From a phage, in assembly GCA_021683455.1 (NCBI GenBank), contig GCA_021683455.1_3051.3: a stretch of 29,205 nt of DNA. One strand, written 5' to 3'. Under the pieces are notes generated by a model that was given only the letters and a program-made list of their open reading frames with translations, was not told where the DNA came from and made no database searches. Shown piece after piece: positions 6,513 to 26,148 of this stretch (position 1 is its first letter; every line of letters starts with the position of its first letter). A program made the position numbers and the translations under genes.

Positions 6513-6881
6513 ATGATTGAAATTACTCTTAAAAAACCTGAAGATTTTCTGAAAGTAAAAGAAACTTTGACTCGTATGGGAATTGCTAATAATAAAGATA
6601 AAGTTCTGTATCAGTCCTGTCATATTCTTCAGAAAAAAGGACTATACTATATCGTTCATTTTAAAGAAATGCTTCGTATGGATGGCCGTCAAGTTGAAAT
6701 GACAGAAGAAGATGAAGTTCGTCGTGATTCGATTGCATGGCTGTTAGAAGATTGGGGACTGATTGAAATCGTTCCTGGTCAAAGAACTTTTATGAAAGAT
6801 TTAACTAATAACTTCCGAGTTATTTCTTTTAAACAAAAACATGAATGGAAACTCGTTCCTAAATATACGATTGGTAATTAA
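6513..6881 (+). CDS. regA: Translational repressor RegA
   Basis: 122 aa, matching T4 RegA length and position; sequence recognised from memory. Confidence 0.85.
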   Translation: MIEITLKKPEDFLKVKETLTRMGIANNKDKVLYQSCHILQKKGLYYIVHFKEMLRMDGRQVEMTEEDEVRRDSIAWLLEDWGLIEIVPGQRTFMKDLTNNFRVISFKQKHEWKLVPKYTIGN

Positions 6882-6882
6882 T

Positions 6883-7104
6883 ATGACTGCTATAACTCCG
6901 CAAGAATACATGGCGTCTCTTAAAGAAAAATATAATCTTTCTGCAACAGAAACACTTTTTGATTTACCAGAAAACCTCCAATTAAAATTTCAGGTAGAAT
7001 TTCAAAAATTAGTTCACCCAGAACAAAAATATTTTACTGCAGTAGTTAAGTCAATTAATGCAGATGGATTAACAATTTTTCACCGACAAACAGTACTAAT
7101 TTAA
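6883..7104 (+). CDS. Small hypothetical protein between regA and gene 43
   Basis: 73-aa ORF starting 2 nt after the regA stop; followed by a UUCG-loop terminator hairpin. Confidence 0.45.
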   Translation: MTAITPQEYMASLKEKYNLSATETLFDLPENLQLKFQVEFQKLVHPEQKYFTAVVKSINADGLTIFHRQTVLI

Positions 7105-7182: not shown

Positions 7183-9879
7183 ATGAAAGAATTTTATATC
7201 TCTATTGAAACAGTCGGAAATAACATTGTTGAACGTTATATTGATGAAAACGGAAAGGAACGTACTCGTGAAGTAGAATATCTTCCAACTATGTTTAGGC
7301 ATTGTAAGGAAGAGTCAAAATACAAAGACATCTATGGTAAAAACTGCGCTCCTCAAAAATTTCCATCAATGAAAGATGCTCGAGATTGGATGAAACGAAT
7401 GGAAGACATCGGTCTCGAAGCTCTCGGTATGAACGATTTTAAACTCGCTTATATCAGTGATACATACGGTTCAGAAATTGTTTATGACCGAAAATTTGTT
7501 CGTGTAGCTAACTGTGACATTGAGGTTACTGGTGATAAATTTCCTGACCCAATGAAAGCAGAATATGAAATTGATGCTATCACTCATTACGATTCAATTG
7601 ATGATCGTTTTTATGTTTTCGACCTTTTGAATTCAATGTATGGTTCAGTATCAAAATGGGATGCAAAGTTAGCTGCTAAGCTTGACTGTGAAGGTGGTGA
7701 TGAAGTTCCTCAAGAAATTCTTGACCGAGTAATTTATATGCCATTCGATAATGAGCGTGATATGCTCATGGAATATATTAATCTTTGGGAACAGAAACGA
7801 CCTGCTATTTTTACTGGTTGGAATATTGAGGGATTTGACGTTCCGTATATCATGAATCGCGTTAAAATGGTTCTCGGTGAACGTAGCATGAAACGCTTCT
7901 CTCCAATCGGTCGAGTAAAATCTAAACTTATCCAAAATATGTACGGTAGCAAAGAAATTTATTCTATTGATGGCGTATCTATTCTTGATTATTTAGATTT
8001 GTATAAGAAATTCGCATTTACTAATTTGCCGTCATTCTCTTTGGAATCAGTTGCTCAGCATGAAACCAAAAAAGGTAAATTACCATACGACGGTCCTATT
8101 AATAAACTTCGTGAGACTAATCATCAACGATACATTAGTTATAACATCATTGACGTAGAATCAGTTCAAGCAATTGATAAAATTCGCGGGTTTATCGATC
8201 TAGTTTTAAGTATGTCTTATTACGCTAAAATGCCTTTTTCTGGTGTAATGAGTCCTATTAAAACTTGGGATGCTATTATTTTTAACTCATTGAAAGGTGA
8301 ACATAAGGTTATTCCTCAACAAGGTTCGCACGTTAAACAAAGTTTTCCGGGTGCATTTGTATTTGAACCTAAACCAATTGCTCGTCGATATATTATGAGT
8401 TTTGACTTGACGTCTCTGTATCCGAGCATTATTCGTCAGGTTAACATTAGTCCTGAGACTATTCGTGGTCAGTTTAAAGTTCATCCAATTCATGAATATA
8501 TCGCAGGAACAGCTCCTAAACCGAGTGATGAATATTCTTGTTCTCCGAATGGATGGATGTACGATAAGCATCAAGAAGGTATCATTCCAAAGGAAATCGC
8601 TAAAGTATTTTTCCAGCGTAAAGATTGGAAAAAGAAAATGTTCGCTGAAGAAATGAATGCCGAAGCTATTAAAAAGATTATTATGAAAGGCGCAGGGTCT
8701 TGTTCAACTAAACCGGAAGTTGAACGATATGTTAAGTTCAGTGATGATTTCTTAAATGAACTATCGAATTATACTGAATCTGTTCTCAATAGTTTGATTG
8801 AAGAATGTGAAAAAGCAGCTACACTTGCTAACACAAATCAGCTGAACCGTAAAATTCTTATTAATAGTCTTTACGGTGCTCTTGGTAATATTCATTTCCG
8901 TTACTATGATTTGCGAAATGCTACTGCTATCACAATTTTCGGCCAAGTTGGTATTCAGTGGATTGCTCGTAAAATTAATGAGTATCTGAATAAAGTATGT
9001 GGAACTAATGGCGAAGATTTCATCGCAGCAGGTGATACTGATTCGGTATATGTTTGTGTAGATAAAGTTATTGAAAAAGTTGGTCTTGACCGATTCAAAG
9101 AGCAGAACGATTTAGTTGAATTCATGAATCAGTTCGGTAAGAAAAAGATGGAACCTATGATTGATGTTGCATATCGTGAGTTATGTGATTATATGAATAA
9201 CCGTGAGCATCTGATGCATATGGACCGTGAAGCTATTTCTTGTCCTCCACTTGGTTCAAAGGGTGTTGGTGGTTTTTGGAAAGCGAAAAAGCGTTATGCT
9301 CTGAACGTTTATGATATGGAAGATAAGCGATTTGCTGAACCGCATCTAAAAATCATGGGTATGGAAACTCAACAGAGTTCAACACCAAAAGCAGTGCAAG
9401 AAGCTCTTGAAGAAAGTATTCGTCGTATTCTTCAAGAAGGCGAAGAGTCTGTCCAAGAATATTACAAAAACTTCGAGAAAGAATATCGTCAACTTGACTA
9501 TAAAGTTATTGCTGAAGTAAAAACTGCGAACGATATAGCGAAATATGATGATAAAGGCTGGCCAGGATTTAAATGCCCGTTCCATATTCGTGGGGTGCTA
9601 ACTTATCGTCGAGCTGTTAACGGTTTAGGTGTAGCTCCAATTTTGGATGGAAATAAGGTAATGGTTCTTCCATTACGTGAAGGAAATCCATTTGGTGACA
9701 AATGCATTGCTTGGCCGTCGGGCACAGAACTTCCAAAAGAAATTCGTTCTGACGTACTGTCTTGGATTGACTACTCAACTTTGTTCCAAAAATCGTTTGT
9801 TAAACCGCTTGCGGGTATGTGTGAATCGGCAGGTATGGACTATGAAGAAAAAGCTTCGTTAGACTTCCTGTTTGGCTGA
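7183..9879 (+). CDS. 43: DNA polymerase gp43 (family B, with 3'-5' exonuclease)
   Basis: 898 aa; exonuclease motif CDIEVTG, polymerase motif A DLTSLYPS, motif B KILINSLYG, motif C AGDTDS, KKRY motif. Contiguous ORF with no intein- or intron-like interruption. Confidence 0.95.
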   Translation: MKEFYISIETVGNNIVERYIDENGKERTREVEYLPTMFRHCKEESKYKDIYGKNCAPQKFPSMKDARDWMKRMEDIGLEALGMNDFKLAYISDTYGSEIVYDRKFVRVANCDIEVTGDKFPDPMKAEYEIDAITHYDSIDDRFYVFDLLNSMYGSVSKWDAKLAAKLDCEGGDEVPQEILDRVIYMPFDNERDMLMEYINLWEQKRPAIFTGWNIEGFDVPYIMNRVKMVLGERSMKRFSPIGRVKSKLIQNMYGSKEIYSIDGVSILDYLDLYKKFAFTNLPSFSLESVAQHETKKGKLPYDGPINKLRETNHQRYISYNIIDVESVQAIDKIRGFIDLVLSMSYYAKMPFSGVMSPIKTWDAIIFNSLKGEHKVIPQQGSHVKQSFPGAFVFEPKPIARRYIMSFDLTSLYPSIIRQVNISPETIRGQFKVHPIHEYIAGTAPKPSDEYSCSPNGWMYDKHQEGIIPKEIAKVFFQRKDWKKKMFAEEMNAEAIKKIIMKGAGSCSTKPEVERYVKFSDDFLNELSNYTESVLNSLIEECEKAATLANTNQLNRKILINSLYGALGNIHFRYYDLRNATAITIFGQVGIQWIARKINEYLNKVCGTNGEDFIAAGDTDSVYVCVDKVIEKVGLDRFKEQNDLVEFMNQFGKKKMEPMIDVAYRELCDYMNNREHLMHMDREAISCPPLGSKGVGGFWKAKKRYALNVYDMEDKRFAEPHLKIMGMETQQSSTPKAVQEALEESIRRILQEGEESVQEYYKNFEKEYRQLDYKVIAEVKTANDIAKYDDKGWPGFKCPFHIRGVLTYRRAVNGLGVAPILDGNKVMVLPLREGNPFGDKCIAWPSGTELPKEIRSDVLSWIDYSTLFQKSFVKPLAGMCESAGMDYEEKASLDFLFG

Positions 9880-22420: not shown

Positions 22421-23044
22421 ATGATTATTAATCTTGCAGATGTTGAACAGTTATCTATAAAAGCTGAAAGCGTTGATTTTCAATATGATATGTATAAAAA
22501 AGTCTGTGAAAAATTTACTGACTTTGAGCAGTCTGTTCTTTGGCAATGTATGGAAGCCAAAAAGAATGAAGCTCTTCACAGACAGTTGAATAAAATCATT
22601 AAAAAGCATTTAACTAAATCGCCTTATCAATTATATCGTGGTATATCAAAATCGACAAAAGAACTTATTAAAGATTTACAAGTTGGAGAAGTGTTTTCAA
22701 CGAACAGGGTAGATTCATTTACTACTAGTTTGCACACAGCATGTGGTTTTTCTTATTTTGAGTATTTCACTGAAATAATTTTTCGCTTAAAAACTGATAA
22801 AGCTTTTAATTATTCTGACCATATCAGCGATATTATACTTTCTTCTCCTAATACTGAGTTTAAGTACACGTATGAAGATACTGACGGGTTAGATTCAGAA
22901 AGAACTGATAACTTAATGATGATTGTGCGTGAACAAGAATGGATGATTCCAATTGGAAAGTATAAAATAACTTCTATTTCAAAAGAAAAATTACACGATT
23001 CATTTGGAACATTTAAAGTTTATGATATTGAGGTAGTTGAATGA
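22421..23044 (+). CDS. modB: ADP-ribosyltransferase ModB
   Basis: 207 aa, the T4 ModB length; R-S-E motifs of mono-ADP-ribosyltransferases (LYRGIS, FSTNR, EQEWMIP); GGAGG SD; own early promoter. Confidence 0.7.
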   Translation: MIINLADVEQLSIKAESVDFQYDMYKKVCEKFTDFEQSVLWQCMEAKKNEALHRQLNKIIKKHLTKSPYQLYRGISKSTKELIKDLQVGEVFSTNRVDSFTTSLHTACGFSYFEYFTEIIFRLKTDKAFNYSDHISDIILSSPNTEFKYTYEDTDGLDSERTDNLMMIVREQEWMIPIGKYKITSISKEKLHDSFGTFKVYDIEVVE

Positions 23045-23641
23045 AATACTCAGTAATGCAACTAAAAGATTTTAAAATAAAATCAATGGATGCATCGGTG
23101 CGTGCTTCTATTCGTGAAGAATTACTTTCTGAAGGGTTTAATTTATCTGAAATTGAACTTTTAATTCATTGTATTACTAATAAGCCAGATGACCATACTT
23201 GGTTAAATGAAATAATCAAATCTCGTTTGGTTCCAAACGATAAACCTCTTTGGAGAGGTGTTCCAGCTGAGACTAAGCAGGTGTTAAATCAAGGAATTGA
23301 TATTATTACATTTGATAAAGTCGTATCAGCTTCATATGATAAAAATATAGCTCTACATTTTGCTTCCGGTTTAGAGTATAACACAGGTTATTTTTGAATT
23401 CAAAGCTCCTATGGTATTCAATTTCCAGGAGTATGCTATAAAAGCTCTACGCTGTAAAGAATACAATCCAAACTTTAAGTTTCCGGATAGCCATCGTTAT
23501 CGTAATATGGAATTAGTTTCAGATGAACAAGAAGTAATGATACCAGCTGGAAGTGTATTTAGAATTGCAGATAGATATGAGTATAAAAAGTATTCAACAT
23601 ACACTATCTATACTCTTGATTTTGAAGGATTTAATCTATAA
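23041..23641 (+). pseudogene. modA: modA-like ADP-ribosyltransferase with interrupted reading frame
   Basis: N-terminal ORF 23041..23397 (118 aa, with LWRGV and VSASYD motifs) ends at TGA; the catalytic EQEVMIP region continues in the +1 frame, which is open from 23375 to 23641 (the ORF track lists it from ATG 23411). Break point is at a T5 run (23391..23395). Confidence 0.55.
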
Positions 23642-23763: not shown

Positions 23764-24519
23764 ATGAAACTGCATAATATGTCTAATAATCAAATTCGTA
23801 AAATTAAACGTCGTTTAGAGCATACTCAGGCATCTGCTAAAAGACGTTCTAAAGATTTTAACTTAGACTTCAATTACATTAAGAACATTTTAGATCAAAA
23901 AGTTTGTGCCTATTCGGGAGAACCTTTTGATAATCGTATTGAAGGAGAGAAATTATCATTAGAACGTTTTGATAATAACATTGGATACATTAAAGGGAAC
24001 GTTATTGCAGTAAAGAAAAAGTATAATACATTTCGTTCTGATTATACTTTAGAAGAGTTGATTGAAAAGCGTGATTTATTTGCTTTGCGAATTGGTCGTT
24101 CATCTGCGAAAAAAGTTCATAAACTAAATTTAGATGAAAAGAAATGGGCTAAAATCAAAAAGACTTATAATCAAATTAAAGCTATACAGAAAAAACGTGA
24201 AAACCGAATTGAACACATTTCTCAGCTTTCTAAATCAAAACAAACTTCTGACGTTAAGCTAACGATTATAGCACTTAAAGCTCGTATTGATGGTTCTCGT
24301 ATAGCAGAAGGTGCTGAAGTTGTTAAACTGAACGTTCTTCTTAAAGGCTCGGATTGGAAAATTGTGAAAAAGTTGTCAGAAGCAGAAATGCAATATGATA
24401 TGTGTGATAAAATTATTCAAGGTGTAGAGCGGTATCAAAACTTGTCTTTTATTGATAAACTTAAACTGAAAAGAGGATACCCGCTAAATTGTTCAATTTT
24501 TAAACTTATCCGAGGATAA
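23764..24519 (+). CDS. srd: Basic hypothetical protein, positionally equivalent to T4 srd
   Basis: 251 aa; Lys/Arg-rich; own early promoter; located between modA and dda. Symbol assigned by synteny only. Confidence 0.4.
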   Translation: MKLHNMSNNQIRKIKRRLEHTQASAKRRSKDFNLDFNYIKNILDQKVCAYSGEPFDNRIEGEKLSLERFDNNIGYIKGNVIAVKKKYNTFRSDYTLEELIEKRDLFALRIGRSSAKKVHKLNLDEKKWAKIKKTYNQIKAIQKKRENRIEHISQLSKSKQTSDVKLTIIALKARIDGSRIAEGAEVVKLNVLLKGSDWKIVKKLSEAEMQYDMCDKIIQGVERYQNLSFIDKLKLKRGYPLNCSIFKLIRG

Positions 24520-24520
24520 T

Positions 24521-24832
24521 ATGGTTTATGTATATGCGATAGTTTACCGAGACAAAGACGGATTTACGGCGCCAGTTCCGCTTGATGAACATCGTCCTGC
24601 TGTATTTTTTGAATGGAATATTGCTGACAAAGTATTTACCACTCTTAAAGAGCAGTATCGACTAGCTTTAGGTATGGGAATTCCAAGATTAGTTGAAACT
24701 CCACGCAAGTTTTGGTTTAATAAAATAGAAGTTAAACACGTTAAGCCTGATGTAGACACACAAAGATTATATCGGCGAATTTTAGATACTGGGCGTGTTG
24801 TTAGTATTCCAATTGCAGGGACTTTCCGATGA
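24521..24832 (+). CDS. Small hypothetical protein (dda.1-like position)
   Basis: 103 aa; GAGGA SD; stop overlaps the dda start (ATGA). Confidence 0.5.
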   Translation: MVYVYAIVYRDKDGFTAPVPLDEHRPAVFFEWNIADKVFTTLKEQYRLALGMGIPRLVETPRKFWFNKIEVKHVKPDVDTQRLYRRILDTGRVVSIPIAGTFR

Positions 24833-26148
24833 CATTTGATGATTTGACAGAAGGCCAGAAAAATGCCTTTAACATCGTTATGAGGGCTATTAAAGAAAAG
24901 AAACATCATGTAACTATTAATGGACCTGCTGGTACTGGTAAGACTACTCTTACTAAGTTCATCATTGAAGCTTTAATATCAACAGGCGAAACTGGTATCA
25001 TTTTGGCAGCTCCTACACATGCAGCTAAAAAGATTCTTTCAAAACTGTCGGGGAAAGAAGCGAGTACTATTCACAGTATTCTTAAAATTAACCCAGTTAC
25101 GTATGAAGAAAATGTTCTTTTTGAACAGAAGGAAGTACCAGATTTAGCTAAATGCAGGGTATTAATCTGCGACGAAGTGTCAATGTATGATAGAAAGCTA
25201 TTTAAAATTCTGCTTTCGACTATTCCGCCGTGGTGCACAATAATTGGAATAGGTGATAATAAGCAAATTAGACCTGTTGACCCAGGAGAAAACACTGCTT
25301 ATATCAGTCCATTTTTTACACACAAAGATTTTTATCAATGTGAACTTACTGAAGTTAAACGCAGTAATGCTCCTATTATTGATGTAGCTACTGATGTTCG
25401 CAACGGTAAGTGGATTTATGATAAAGTTGTTGACGGTCATGGAGTACGTGGATTTACTGGTGATACCGCTTTACGCGATTTTATGGTAAATTATTTTTCA
25501 ATCGTCAAATCACTAGATGATTTGTTTGAAAATCGCGTAATGGCATTTACGAATAAATCTGTTGACAAGTTAAATAGCATTATTCGTAAAAAGATTTTTG
25601 AAACTGATAAAGATTTTATTGTCGGTGAAATTATTGTAATGCAAGAACCGTTAATTAAAACGTATAAAATTGACGGAAAACCGGTATCAGAAATTATTTT
25701 TAATAACGGACAATTAGTTCGTATTATAGAAGCAGAGTATACATCAACCTTTGTTAAAGCTCGTGGTGTTCCTGGAGAATATCTAATTCGTCATTGGGAC
25801 TTAACAGTAGAAACTTACGGCGATGATGAATATTATCGTGAAAAGATTAAAATAATTTCATCTGATGAAGAGCTATATAAGTTTAACCTATTTTTAGGTA
25901 AAACGGCAGAAACTTATAAAAATTGGAACAAAGGCGGAAAAGCTCCATGGAGTGATTTTTGGGATGCTAAATCACAGTTCAGTAAAGTGAAAGCACTTCC
26001 TGCATCAACATTCCATAAAGCTCAGGGTATGTCTGTAGACCGTGCTTTCATTTATACGCCTTGTATTCATTATGCAGATGCTGAATTAGCTCAACAACTT
26101 CTTTATGTTGGTGTAACACGTGGTCGTTATGATGTGTTTTATGTGTGA
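24829..26148 (+). CDS. dda: DNA helicase Dda (SF1B)
   Basis: 439 aa; Walker A GPAGTGKTT, motif II CDEVSM, GDNKQ, motif VI VGVTRGR. Confidence 0.9.
   Translation: MTFDDLTEGQKNAFNIVMRAIKEKKHHVTINGPAGTGKTTLTKFIIEALISTGETGIILAAPTHAAKKILSKLSGKEASTIHSILKINPVTYEENVLFEQKEVPDLAKCRVLICDEVSMYDRKLFKILLSTIPPWCTIIGIGDNKQIRPVDPGENTAYISPFFTHKDFYQCELTEVKRSNAPIIDVATDVRNGKWIYDKVVDGHGVRGFTGDTALRDFMVNYFSIVKSLDDLFENRVMAFTNKSVDKLNSIIRKKIFETDKDFIVGEIIVMQEPLIKTYKIDGKPVSEIIFNNGQLVRIIEAEYTSTFVKARGVPGEYLIRHWDLTVETYGDDEYYREKIKIISSDEELYKFNLFLGKTAETYKNWNKGGKAPWSDFWDAKSQFSKVKALPASTFHKAQGMSVDRAFIYTPCIHYADAELAQQLLYVGVTRGRYDVFYV

What the first reader, a model, noticed from the sequence alone, without database searches (positions are those of the whole stretch)
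23041..23641. modA ADP-ribosyltransferase reading frame is split at a T-run, in a context resembling the prfB +1 frameshift site
The N-terminal 118-aa ORF (23041..23397) carries the Arg and Ser motifs of the R-S-E ADP-ribosyltransferase signature (LWRGV, VSASYD) but stops at TGA 23395..23397. The catalytic Glu motif (EQEVMIP) lies downstream in the +1 frame, which is open from 23375 to 23641. Together the parts give about 199-200 aa, the size I recall for intact T4 ModA. The break is at ACA GGU UAU UUU UGA A: an SD-like AGGU three nt upstream of a UUU codon followed by UGA, where +1 slippage re-pairs Phe-tRNA on UUU and then reads GAA. That is the architecture of the E. coli prfB (RF2) programmed +1 frameshift. 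Three explanations are open: a true pseudogene (modA is non-essential, and I recall it being toxic when cloned), a homopolymer sequencing or assembly error, or genuine RF2-responsive +1 frameshifting that would tie production of a host-RNA-polymerase-modifying enzyme to termination efficiency.
Basis: partly seen in the sequence, partly recalled or inferred. Interest (0 to 1): 0.65.

Follow-up and report, generated by a model that had tools for sequence, protein, structure and literature searches.

The report
modA broken by two-base deletion
In this T4-like phage the non-essential, host-toxic gene modA is knocked out by loss of one AC unit from a short ACACACA repeat; its likeness to the bacterial prfB frameshift signal is a side effect of ordinary codons, so this is an ordinary recent loss-of-function mutation.

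Summary
The split is real. modA runs 23041..23397 (118 aa, Arg and Ser motifs) and continues in the +1 frame to 23641 (catalytic EQE motif).

The lesion is not in the T-run. Every relative examined has TATAACACACAGGTTATTTTTGAA, while the window has TATAACACAGGTTATTTTTGAA. One AC unit is missing at 23381..23385. The five T's are invariant and are normally read ATT TTT GAA (Ile-Phe-Glu).

No other sequence carries this allele:
- none of about 493 matching phage records;
- no hit for a junction probe in 50,697 phage records;
- none in the IMG/VR, metagenome or genome collections.
The only match is a Logan contig from run SRR17762126, identical to the window over the 6,357 nt compared.

About 55 other genes in the window are intact. 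Both modA halves are 100% identical in protein to an intact ModA, so the lesion is young.

At least ten other, different modA lesions occur in other T4-like sequences. ModA is reported to be toxic to E. coli, and its deletion did not change early-transcription shut-off.

The prfB likeness is shallow. UUU_UGA matches a rare prfB variant. The SD-like pairing is weak (-3.7 versus -10.7 kcal/mol), the base after UGA is A rather than C, and nothing is conserved.

Verdict: a recent null allele made by replication slippage, at most incidentally leaky.

The parts
22421..23044 (+). modB, the intact paralogous ADP-ribosyltransferase (207 aa). Its stop overlaps the modA start (ATGA).
   Evidence: ORF. 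PHROG 832, E 6e-42. 97.6% identical to the G4507 ModB over its full length in one frame.
23041..23397 (+). modA 5' part: a 118-aa ORF with the Arg72 (LWRG) and Ser (VSAS) motifs. It ends at TGA 23395..23397 after 3 out-of-frame codons (GGT TAT TTT).
   Evidence: The exact 118-aa product is on record only from Logan contig SRR17762126_219.
23381..23385 (+). The lesion: ACACA where relatives have ACACACA. One AC unit is lost (nt 341-342 of intact modA, codons 115/116).
   Evidence: Alignment A1. Pairwise indel listing. The same 2-nt gap against all 20 other loci fetched.
23391..23397 (+). TTTTTGA: the T5 run plus the first stop in the shifted frame. In intact genes the same bases are read ATT TTT GAA.
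   Evidence: Invariant columns in alignment A1. The sequence itself.
23375..23641 (+). modA 3' part in the +1 frame. From 23381 it encodes the wild-type residues T-Q-V-I-F-E-F-K... through the catalytic E163-Q-E165 to the normal stop. It includes the ATG ORF 23411..23641 (76 aa).
   Evidence: 100% identity to residues 115-200 of G4507 ModA. PHROG 832.
23764..24519 (+). srd, the downstream neighbour. It is intact and fixes the T4-type gene order modB-modA-srd-dda.1-dda.

Best explanation
The window comes from a Tequatrovirus (T4-like phage) whose modA gene carries a recent, genuine 2-bp deletion. One AC unit was lost from the short tandem repeat ACACACA. This is the kind of change expected from slipped-strand mispairing during replication (the Streisinger model, from established knowledge).

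Shown:
- The deletion moves translation into a frame that stops three codons later, at a TGA that happens to overlap the T5 run.
- The resulting 118-aa product lacks the EXE motif. E165 is required for activity.
- The allele is unique to this phage, and no further damage has accumulated in the gene.
- modA has been hit independently by many other lesions in other T4-like sequences.

Inferred:
- The allele is a null, or nearly null.
- It is tolerated, and perhaps favoured, because ModA is dispensable in the laboratory and toxic to the host.
- Any +1 slippage of Phe-tRNA on UUU_UGA is incidental and low-level. It would give a ModA variant (TGYF-EFK in place of TQVIFEFK) altered in a block conserved with ModB.
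For: - The 2-bp gap lies in the AC repeat, and the T-run is unchanged.
- Allele distribution: 0 of 493 phage records reach 99% identity or more on an 81-nt probe. A 39-nt junction probe has no match in 50,697 phage records. There are no exact matches in IMG/VR, metagenome or genome contigs.
- The same allele is in a Logan contig from run SRR17762126, identical to the window over 6,357 nt.
- Of about 55 G4507 proteins mapped onto the window, only ModA is split between frames. The sequence is therefore not generally error-prone.
- Both modA halves are 100% identical in protein to G4507 ModA. The gene differs from KMB42 modA by 1 substitution plus the deletion.
- All 7 places shown (of 13 contigs read) that encode an identical ModB carry a 200-aa ModA.
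- Independent modA lesions elsewhere: a +5 AGTAT duplication at nt 334; +T in the T5 run; +C at nt 204; K93*; W71*; a 157-aa product ending at M157 (residue 158 is Glu in intact ModA); a frameshifted tail starting after codon 56; a 54-aa truncation in phage ELT1; an in-frame 52-aa deletion in Sf25; an in-frame 33-aa duplication in UFV10.
- ModA synthesis is highly toxic to E. coli, and a modA deletion does not change early-transcription shut-off (PMC2988021). E165A abolishes ADP-ribosylation (PMC11404850).
Against: - The window and the Logan contig may rest on the same reads, so the allele has not been confirmed in an independent sample or by another technology.
- I could not inspect reads, coverage or allele fraction.
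- The stop context UUU_UGA_A is slip-capable, so 'null' could really be 'strongly reduced'.
- I did not measure how often neighbouring genes are broken. 'modA is hit unusually often' is therefore not established. The lesions show only that modA loss is tolerated and recurrent.
Confidence: 0.82

Rival explanations
1. Sequencing or assembly artefact: the phage really has ACACACA and an intact modA, and two bases were dropped by the basecaller or assembler.
For: - The allele is seen in one sample only.
- No relative shares it.
- The gene is otherwise perfect. That pattern fits an error as well as it fits a very young mutation.
Against: - The same bases appear in the Logan contig from run SRR17762126.
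- No other gene among about 55 in the 29-kb window is frameshifted, so the per-base indel error rate is very low.
- Loss of a whole dinucleotide unit in a three-unit repeat is not the usual homopolymer-type error (my own knowledge, not tested here).
- Different modA lesions shared by several contigs from different sources show that real modA knock-outs exist. An example is the +5 duplication, found in ENA, IMG and NCBI contigs.
Confidence: 0.11
2. Programmed or usefully leaky prfB-like +1 frameshifting. Ribosomes pausing at UGA with Phe-tRNA on UUU slip to the overlapping UUU and read GAA. This makes a 199-aa ModA at a level set by RF2 activity, so an otherwise toxic enzyme is produced at a low, termination-coupled dose.
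For: - UUU_UGA allows perfect re-pairing, and TTTTTGA is a rare natural prfB shift site (21 genomes; PMC12421855).
- AGGU lies 3 nt 5' of the UUU codon.
- The +1 frame is open and encodes an undamaged C-terminal half.
- 'Savior indel plus low compensatory frameshifting' is a known phenomenon in herpesvirus thymidine kinase (PMC5009743).
Against: - Not conserved. Every relative reads these bases in frame as Q-V-I-F-E, and the allele occurs once.
- SD/anti-SD pairing is -3.7 kcal/mol, matched or beaten by 21% of all 13-mers in the window. E. coli prfB gives -10.7, reached by 0.2%.
- The G of AGG is a variable wobble base (CAA in T2, RB18 and L008).
- The base after UGA is A, whereas C is nearly universal and important in prfB.
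- UUU_U is reported to be much less efficient than CUU_U (PMC5009743).
- No local RNA structure is predicted (z = -0.34).
- The trans-frame product would lose a residue and replace Q-V-I in a block conserved between ModA and ModB.
- A T-run or stop coincidence of this kind is expected in about 2% of random lesions.
Confidence: 0.04
3. Split enzyme: the 118-aa N-terminal fragment and a 76-aa C-terminal fragment, re-initiated at ATG 23411, are both made and associate into an active transferase.
For: ATG 23411 lies 14 nt after the stop, so termination-reinitiation is geometrically possible. Gene callers report the 76-aa ORF on many contigs.
Against: - There is no SD-like sequence before ATG 23411; the preceding bases are TTCAAAGCTCCT.
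- The 76-aa ORF is called wherever modA is broken upstream, by unrelated lesions. It is a by-product of an internal Met codon (M125).
- The cut falls inside the conserved block shared with ModB, and the segment QVIFEFKAP would be missing from both fragments.
Confidence: 0.02

Closest known systems
Bacteriophage T4 ModA (UniProt P39421), an Arg-specific R-S-EXE ADP-ribosyltransferase that modifies Arg265 of both RNA polymerase alpha subunits
   Same: - Same locus and gene order (modB-modA-srd-dda).
- Both halves are 100% identical in protein to an intact Tequatrovirus ModA.
- The R72, Ser and E163-Q-E165 motifs are all present in the DNA.
   Different: The reading frame is interrupted after codon 115 by a 2-bp deletion. 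Standard decoding gives a 118-aa product without the catalytic EXE motif.
prfB (release factor 2) programmed +1 ribosomal frameshift site, AGGGGG-UAU-CUU_UGA_C
   Same: - In-frame UGA directly after a NUU codon, followed by U, so the P-site tRNA can re-pair in +1.
- A UAU codon precedes the shift codon.
- A purine-rich AGG lies upstream.
- The functional part of the protein is in the +1 frame.
- The heptamer TTTTTGA is a rare natural prfB variant.
   Different: - The SD-like element is 4 nt and weak (-3.7 versus -10.7 kcal/mol).
- A rather than C follows UGA.
- The shift codon is UUU, not CUU.
- The site is absent from all orthologues, having been created by a unique deletion.
- There is no autoregulatory logic linking RF2 to ModA.
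Slipped-strand (Streisinger-type) frameshift mutations at short tandem repeats, first described in phage T4 (from my own knowledge; no paper was consulted on this)
   Same: Loss of exactly one repeat unit from a three-unit dinucleotide repeat, with no other change nearby. Other modA lesions in the same 20-bp stretch are also repeat-associated: a 5-bp duplication next to GTATA, and +T in T5.
   Different: Nothing substantive. This is a textbook example.
'Savior indel' with low-level compensatory frameshifting (herpes simplex thymidine kinase G-run mutants; PMC5009743)
   Same: An indel inactivates a gene whose full activity can be disadvantageous, next to a slip-prone run that could give a trickle of product.
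   Different: Here the indel is not in the slippery run. No product or phenotype has been measured. The restored protein would not be wild type in sequence.

Membership tests
T4 ModA/ModB ADP-ribosyltransferases (R-S-EXE) | Sequence homology to ModA across the whole domain | tested here: met
   The two pieces match PHROG 832 at profile positions 1241-1358 and 1367-1439. They match residues 1-115 and 115-200 of G4507 ModA at 100%. The precomputed Pfam hit PF26816 (Mod_ADP_RT) is listed for both ORFs. The local Pfam copy gave no hit even for an intact ModA, so it cannot serve as a test.
T4 ModA/ModB ADP-ribosyltransferases (R-S-EXE) | Arg, Ser and Glu-x-Glu catalytic motifs | tested here: met
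   LWR72G and VSAS lie in the 118-aa ORF. E163-Q-E165 lies in the +1-frame part. E165A is catalytically dead (PMC11404850).
T4 ModA/ModB ADP-ribosyltransferases (R-S-EXE) | One continuous ORF of about 200 aa that places all three motifs in one polypeptide | tested here: not met
   The frame is broken after codon 115, with a stop at 23395..23397. Relatives have a 603-nt CDS.
T4 ModA/ModB ADP-ribosyltransferases (R-S-EXE) | ADP-ribosylation of RNA polymerase alpha Arg265 | not testable with these tools
   This needs infected-cell biochemistry.
prfB-type programmed +1 frameshift | Shift codon CUU (rarely UUU) directly 5' of an in-frame UGA, with the continuation in +1 | tested here: met
   UUU_UGA at 23392..23397, with the +1 frame open to 23641. 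TTTTTGA occurs in 21 prfB genes (PMC12421855).
prfB-type programmed +1 frameshift | Strong SD-like sequence (consensus AGGGGG) 3 nt 5' of the shift codon | tested here: not met
   Only AGGU is present. Duplex with the 16S 3' tail is -3.7 kcal/mol versus -10.7 for E. coli prfB, and 21% of window 13-mers do as well. The G is polymorphic in relatives.
prfB-type programmed +1 frameshift | C immediately 3' of UGA (a weak terminator) | tested here: not met
   The base at 23398 is A. C is reported as almost universally conserved and important.
prfB-type programmed +1 frameshift | Conservation of the interrupted architecture among orthologues | tested here: not met
   0 of 493 records. No junction match in 50,697 phage records. 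0 in IMG/VR, metagenome and genome contigs. All 20 fetched relatives lack the deletion.
prfB-type programmed +1 frameshift | Demonstrated trans-frame product responsive to RF2 | not testable with these tools
   This needs a reporter assay or mass spectrometry.
Slipped-strand indel at a short tandem repeat | The indel equals a whole number of repeat units inside a tandem repeat, with the flanks unchanged | tested here: met
   ACACACA to ACACA. There is only 1 substitution elsewhere in 601 nt compared with KMB42.
Slipped-strand indel at a short tandem repeat | The allele is present in the DNA molecule, not only in a consensus | tested here: inconclusive
   It is present in the Logan contig from SRR17762126. 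Reads, platform and allele fraction could not be examined.

The most novel reading that the evidence does not exclude
The 2-bp deletion is an attenuating ('savior') allele rather than a clean null. It would have been selected because full ModA dosage is costly on the isolation or propagation host. It happens to place a UUU_UGA shifty stop three codons downstream, so a small fraction of ribosomes, dependent on termination efficiency, slip +1. They would make a 199-aa ModA variant (TGYF-EFK) that keeps some activity.
Probability: 0.04. Interest if true: 0.5.

Novelty: already known. Interest (0 to 1): 0.15.

Why it matters
It matters little beyond annotation. The gene should be labelled a modA pseudogene, or a frameshifted allele, caused by a 2-bp deletion. 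It should not be annotated as two hypothetical proteins or as a recoding site.

The wider pattern is a modest lead: many independent modA lesions occur across T4-like phages and metagenomes. It fits ModA being dispensable or costly on many hosts. It also fits a recent transposon screen in which the ModA orthologue of phage Bas37 is labelled in a plot of gene fitness on a host expressing the Mokosh defence system. If modA loss is selected rather than merely tolerated, it would point to a host-dependent cost of modifying RNA polymerase alpha.

If the 4% reading were true, it would be a natural case of a toxic phage enzyme being dosed through a newly arisen shifty stop.

Tried and rejected
- T-run length change as the lesion: rejected. 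T5 is invariant in the aligned relatives.
- Transcriptional slippage on the T-run: rejected by inference. The run is only 5 T's, whereas known slippage sites recalled from the literature are longer. Not tested.
- A stimulatory RNA structure around the site: none found. The MFE is -15.8 kcal/mol and z = -0.34 against shuffles.
- A minus-strand gene across the region: none of 40 aa or more.
- Local Pfam scan: no hit even for intact ModA. The local library evidently lacks PF26816, so PHROGs was used instead.
- PDB sequence search for a solved ModA structure: none. I therefore made no structure-based judgement of the trans-frame product.
- Tiemann et al. 1999 and 2004 (PMC6157369, PMC523198): not held. 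Toxicity and dispensability are cited from the review PMC2988021 instead.
- Literature searches for reports of modA frameshifts or pseudogenes in T4-like phages, and for SRR17762126: nothing relevant.
- Loci L014 and L015 (apparent 44- and 46-bp deletions): discounted, because the translations show X runs from N-filled, low-coverage scaffolds.
- Junction probes for the +5 duplication and +T alleles found no GenBank phage record. Those alleles are known only from metagenome and other assemblies.
- I did not run the large protein-database searches or structure prediction. They could not change the verdict.

Full report
WHAT IS THERE

The window is a stretch of a T4-like phage (Tequatrovirus) genome. 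A 901-nt query around the finding matches 503 phage records at 90-99% identity, and the features under the match are annotated modB, modA and srd. The whole window is at best about 97% identical to any record, so the phage itself is not in that collection.

The gene order is modB (22421..23044), modA (23041..23641), srd (23764..24519), a 103-aa ORF, then dda (24829..26148).

An ATG ORF at 23041..23397 gives 118 aa ending LEYNTGYF, followed by TGA. An ATG ORF at 23411..23641 gives 76 aa. The +1 frame is open from 23375. Both pieces match consecutive parts of PHROG 832, 'RNA polymerase ADP-ribosylase'. They match residues 1-115 and 115-200 of an intact 200-aa ModA at 100% identity.

WHERE THE FRAME IS BROKEN

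Alignment with five relatives and pairwise comparison with 20 loci show a single indel. Relatives read GAG TAT AAC ACA CAG GTT ATT TTT GAA TTC (E Y N T Q V I F E F). The window reads GAG TAT AAC ACA GGT TAT TTT TGA.

One AC unit of ACACACA is missing (window 23381..23385, nt 341-342 of modA). The run of five T's is identical in all five aligned relatives. In intact genes it is read Ile-Phe, and the 'UGA' is the last T of TTT plus the GA of GAA.

The T-run merely contains the first stop of the shifted frame. A re-count of T or G residues would not address the real lesion.

HOW WIDESPREAD THE ALLELE IS

- None of 493 matching phage records reaches 99% identity on an 81-nt probe. The best are 97.6%, which is the two gap columns.
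- I designed a 39-nt junction probe so that only a sequence sharing the deletion can supply megablast's 28-nt word. It finds nothing in 50,697 phage records.
- Exact-pattern scans of IMG/VR, JGI metagenome contigs and 185,579 species' genomes also find nothing.
- The exact 118-aa protein is on record once, on Logan contig SRR17762126_219 (19,294 nt). That contig is identical to the window over the 6,357 nt compared.
- The 7 places shown (of 13 contigs read) that encode a ModB identical to the window's all carry an intact 200-aa ModA.

REAL MUTATION OR ERROR

I mapped the proteins of the relative G4507 onto the window. Of about 55 genes, only modA is split between frames. Two short partial matches are diverged ends of intact ORFs. 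The sequence is therefore of high quality.

The Logan contig carries the same bases, though possibly from the same reads. I could not examine the reads.

The modA gene differs from that of phage KMB42 by one substitution plus the deletion. Either the lesion is very young or it is an error. I put the artefact at about 0.11.

CONTEXT: modA IS OFTEN BROKEN

Cluster and contig look-ups turned up many different lesions in other T4-like sequences:
- a 5-bp AGTAT duplication at nt 334 (135-aa product, several contigs from ENA, IMG and NCBI);
- +T in the T5 run (119 aa);
- +C at nt 204;
- K93* and W71*;
- a 157-aa product ending at M157, where intact ModA has Glu at residue 158 (found in phage 11B_SA_NWU);
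- a frameshifted tail starting after codon 56;
- a 54-aa truncation in phage ELT1;
- an in-frame 52-aa deletion that removes the R and S motifs in Sf25;
- an in-frame 33-aa duplication in UFV10.

Three of these, together with the window's deletion, fall within nt 334-352. That stretch is made of short repeats (GTATA, ACACACA, TTTTT).

A T4 transcription review states that ModA synthesis is highly toxic to E. coli, and that a modA deletion does not change early-transcription shut-off (PMC2988021). E165A abolishes activity (PMC11404850), so a 118-aa product lacking E163/E165 is inactive.

I did not measure whether modA is broken more often than its neighbours. T2's modB is also split.

THE prfB RESEMBLANCE

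Defining features of the prfB site, taken from PMC5009743 and PMC12421855, are:
- an SD-like AGGGGG;
- a 3-nt spacer;
- CUU_UGA;
- C after the stop;
- near-universal conservation.

The window has UUU_UGA, and TTTTTGA is a rare natural prfB variant found in 21 low-GC genomes. However, UUU_U is reported as much less efficient than CUU_U. The following base is A. The SD-like element is AGGU, with a duplex energy of -3.7 kcal/mol against -10.7 for E. coli prfB. In the window, 21% of all 13-mers pair at least as well as the site, and 0.2% pair as well as prfB.

The G of AGG is the wobble base of a Gln codon and is A in T2, RB18 and L008. No local RNA structure stands out. About 1.8% of random lesions of this frame class in the window's genes would end on TTT TGA.

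The likeness is therefore a by-product of reading Gln-Val-Ile-Phe-Glu codons out of frame. Some incidental slippage cannot be excluded. It would give TGYF-EFK in place of TQVIFEFK, one residue shorter, inside a block conserved between ModA and ModB (TQVIF versus TEIIF).

VERDICT

This is a recent loss-of-function allele of a known, dispensable, host-toxic phage gene, made by loss of one unit of a dinucleotide repeat (confidence 0.82). It is not a programmed frameshift (0.04). It is ordinary, and it should be annotated as a frameshifted modA.

Noticed in passing
modA nt 334-352 (window 23374..23395); loci L008:1458-1469 and L009:1479-1484: Three different independent frame-breaking lesions fall within about 20 bp of modA: a +5 AGTAT duplication, the window's -2 AC, and +T in the T5 run. 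The stretch is made of short repeats (GTATA, ACACACA, TTTTT), so it looks like a local mutational hotspot.
   Followed up: partly
Proteins P0002-P0021; loci L008-L013: At least ten distinct modA-disrupting lesions (frameshifts, nonsense codons, an in-frame 52-aa deletion, an in-frame 33-aa duplication) occur across T4-like phages and metagenome contigs. I did not establish whether modA is hit more often than neighbouring genes.
   Followed up: partly
L005 (phage T2, LC348380.1) 20-641: In T2 the paralogue modB is annotated as two pieces (a 429-nt 'ModB' and a 129-nt hypothetical). A mod gene is therefore also broken in a classical laboratory phage.
   Followed up: no
L002 (phage vB_EcoM-UFV10, OP555981.1) 638-1339: modA carries a 99-bp in-frame tandem duplication that repeats residues AIKALRCKEY...SDEQE (233-aa product). 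It could be real or an assembly artefact.
   Followed up: no
window 6841..7104 (+): There is an extra ORF (up to 87 aa, MNGNSF.../MTAITPQEYMASLKEKYNL...) in a roughly 300-nt gap between regA (6513..6881) and DNA polymerase gene 43 (7183..9879). In the close relative G4507 this gap is only 78 nt.
   Followed up: no
Cluster members P0005, P0006, P0009, P0010, P0017, P0019: ModA fragments are deposited as 'hypothetical protein' of Enterococcus faecalis and Salmonella enterica on very short contigs. This suggests T4-like phage DNA contaminating bacterial genome assemblies.
   Followed up: no
bioRxiv 10.1101/2025.11.20.689424: In a figure legend of a transposon screen on a host expressing the Mokosh type I defence system, the ModA orthologue of phage Bas37 is labelled in a plot of gene fitness. 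This hints that ModA may be conditionally useful against a host defence, which would fit its frequent loss on permissive hosts.
   Followed up: no
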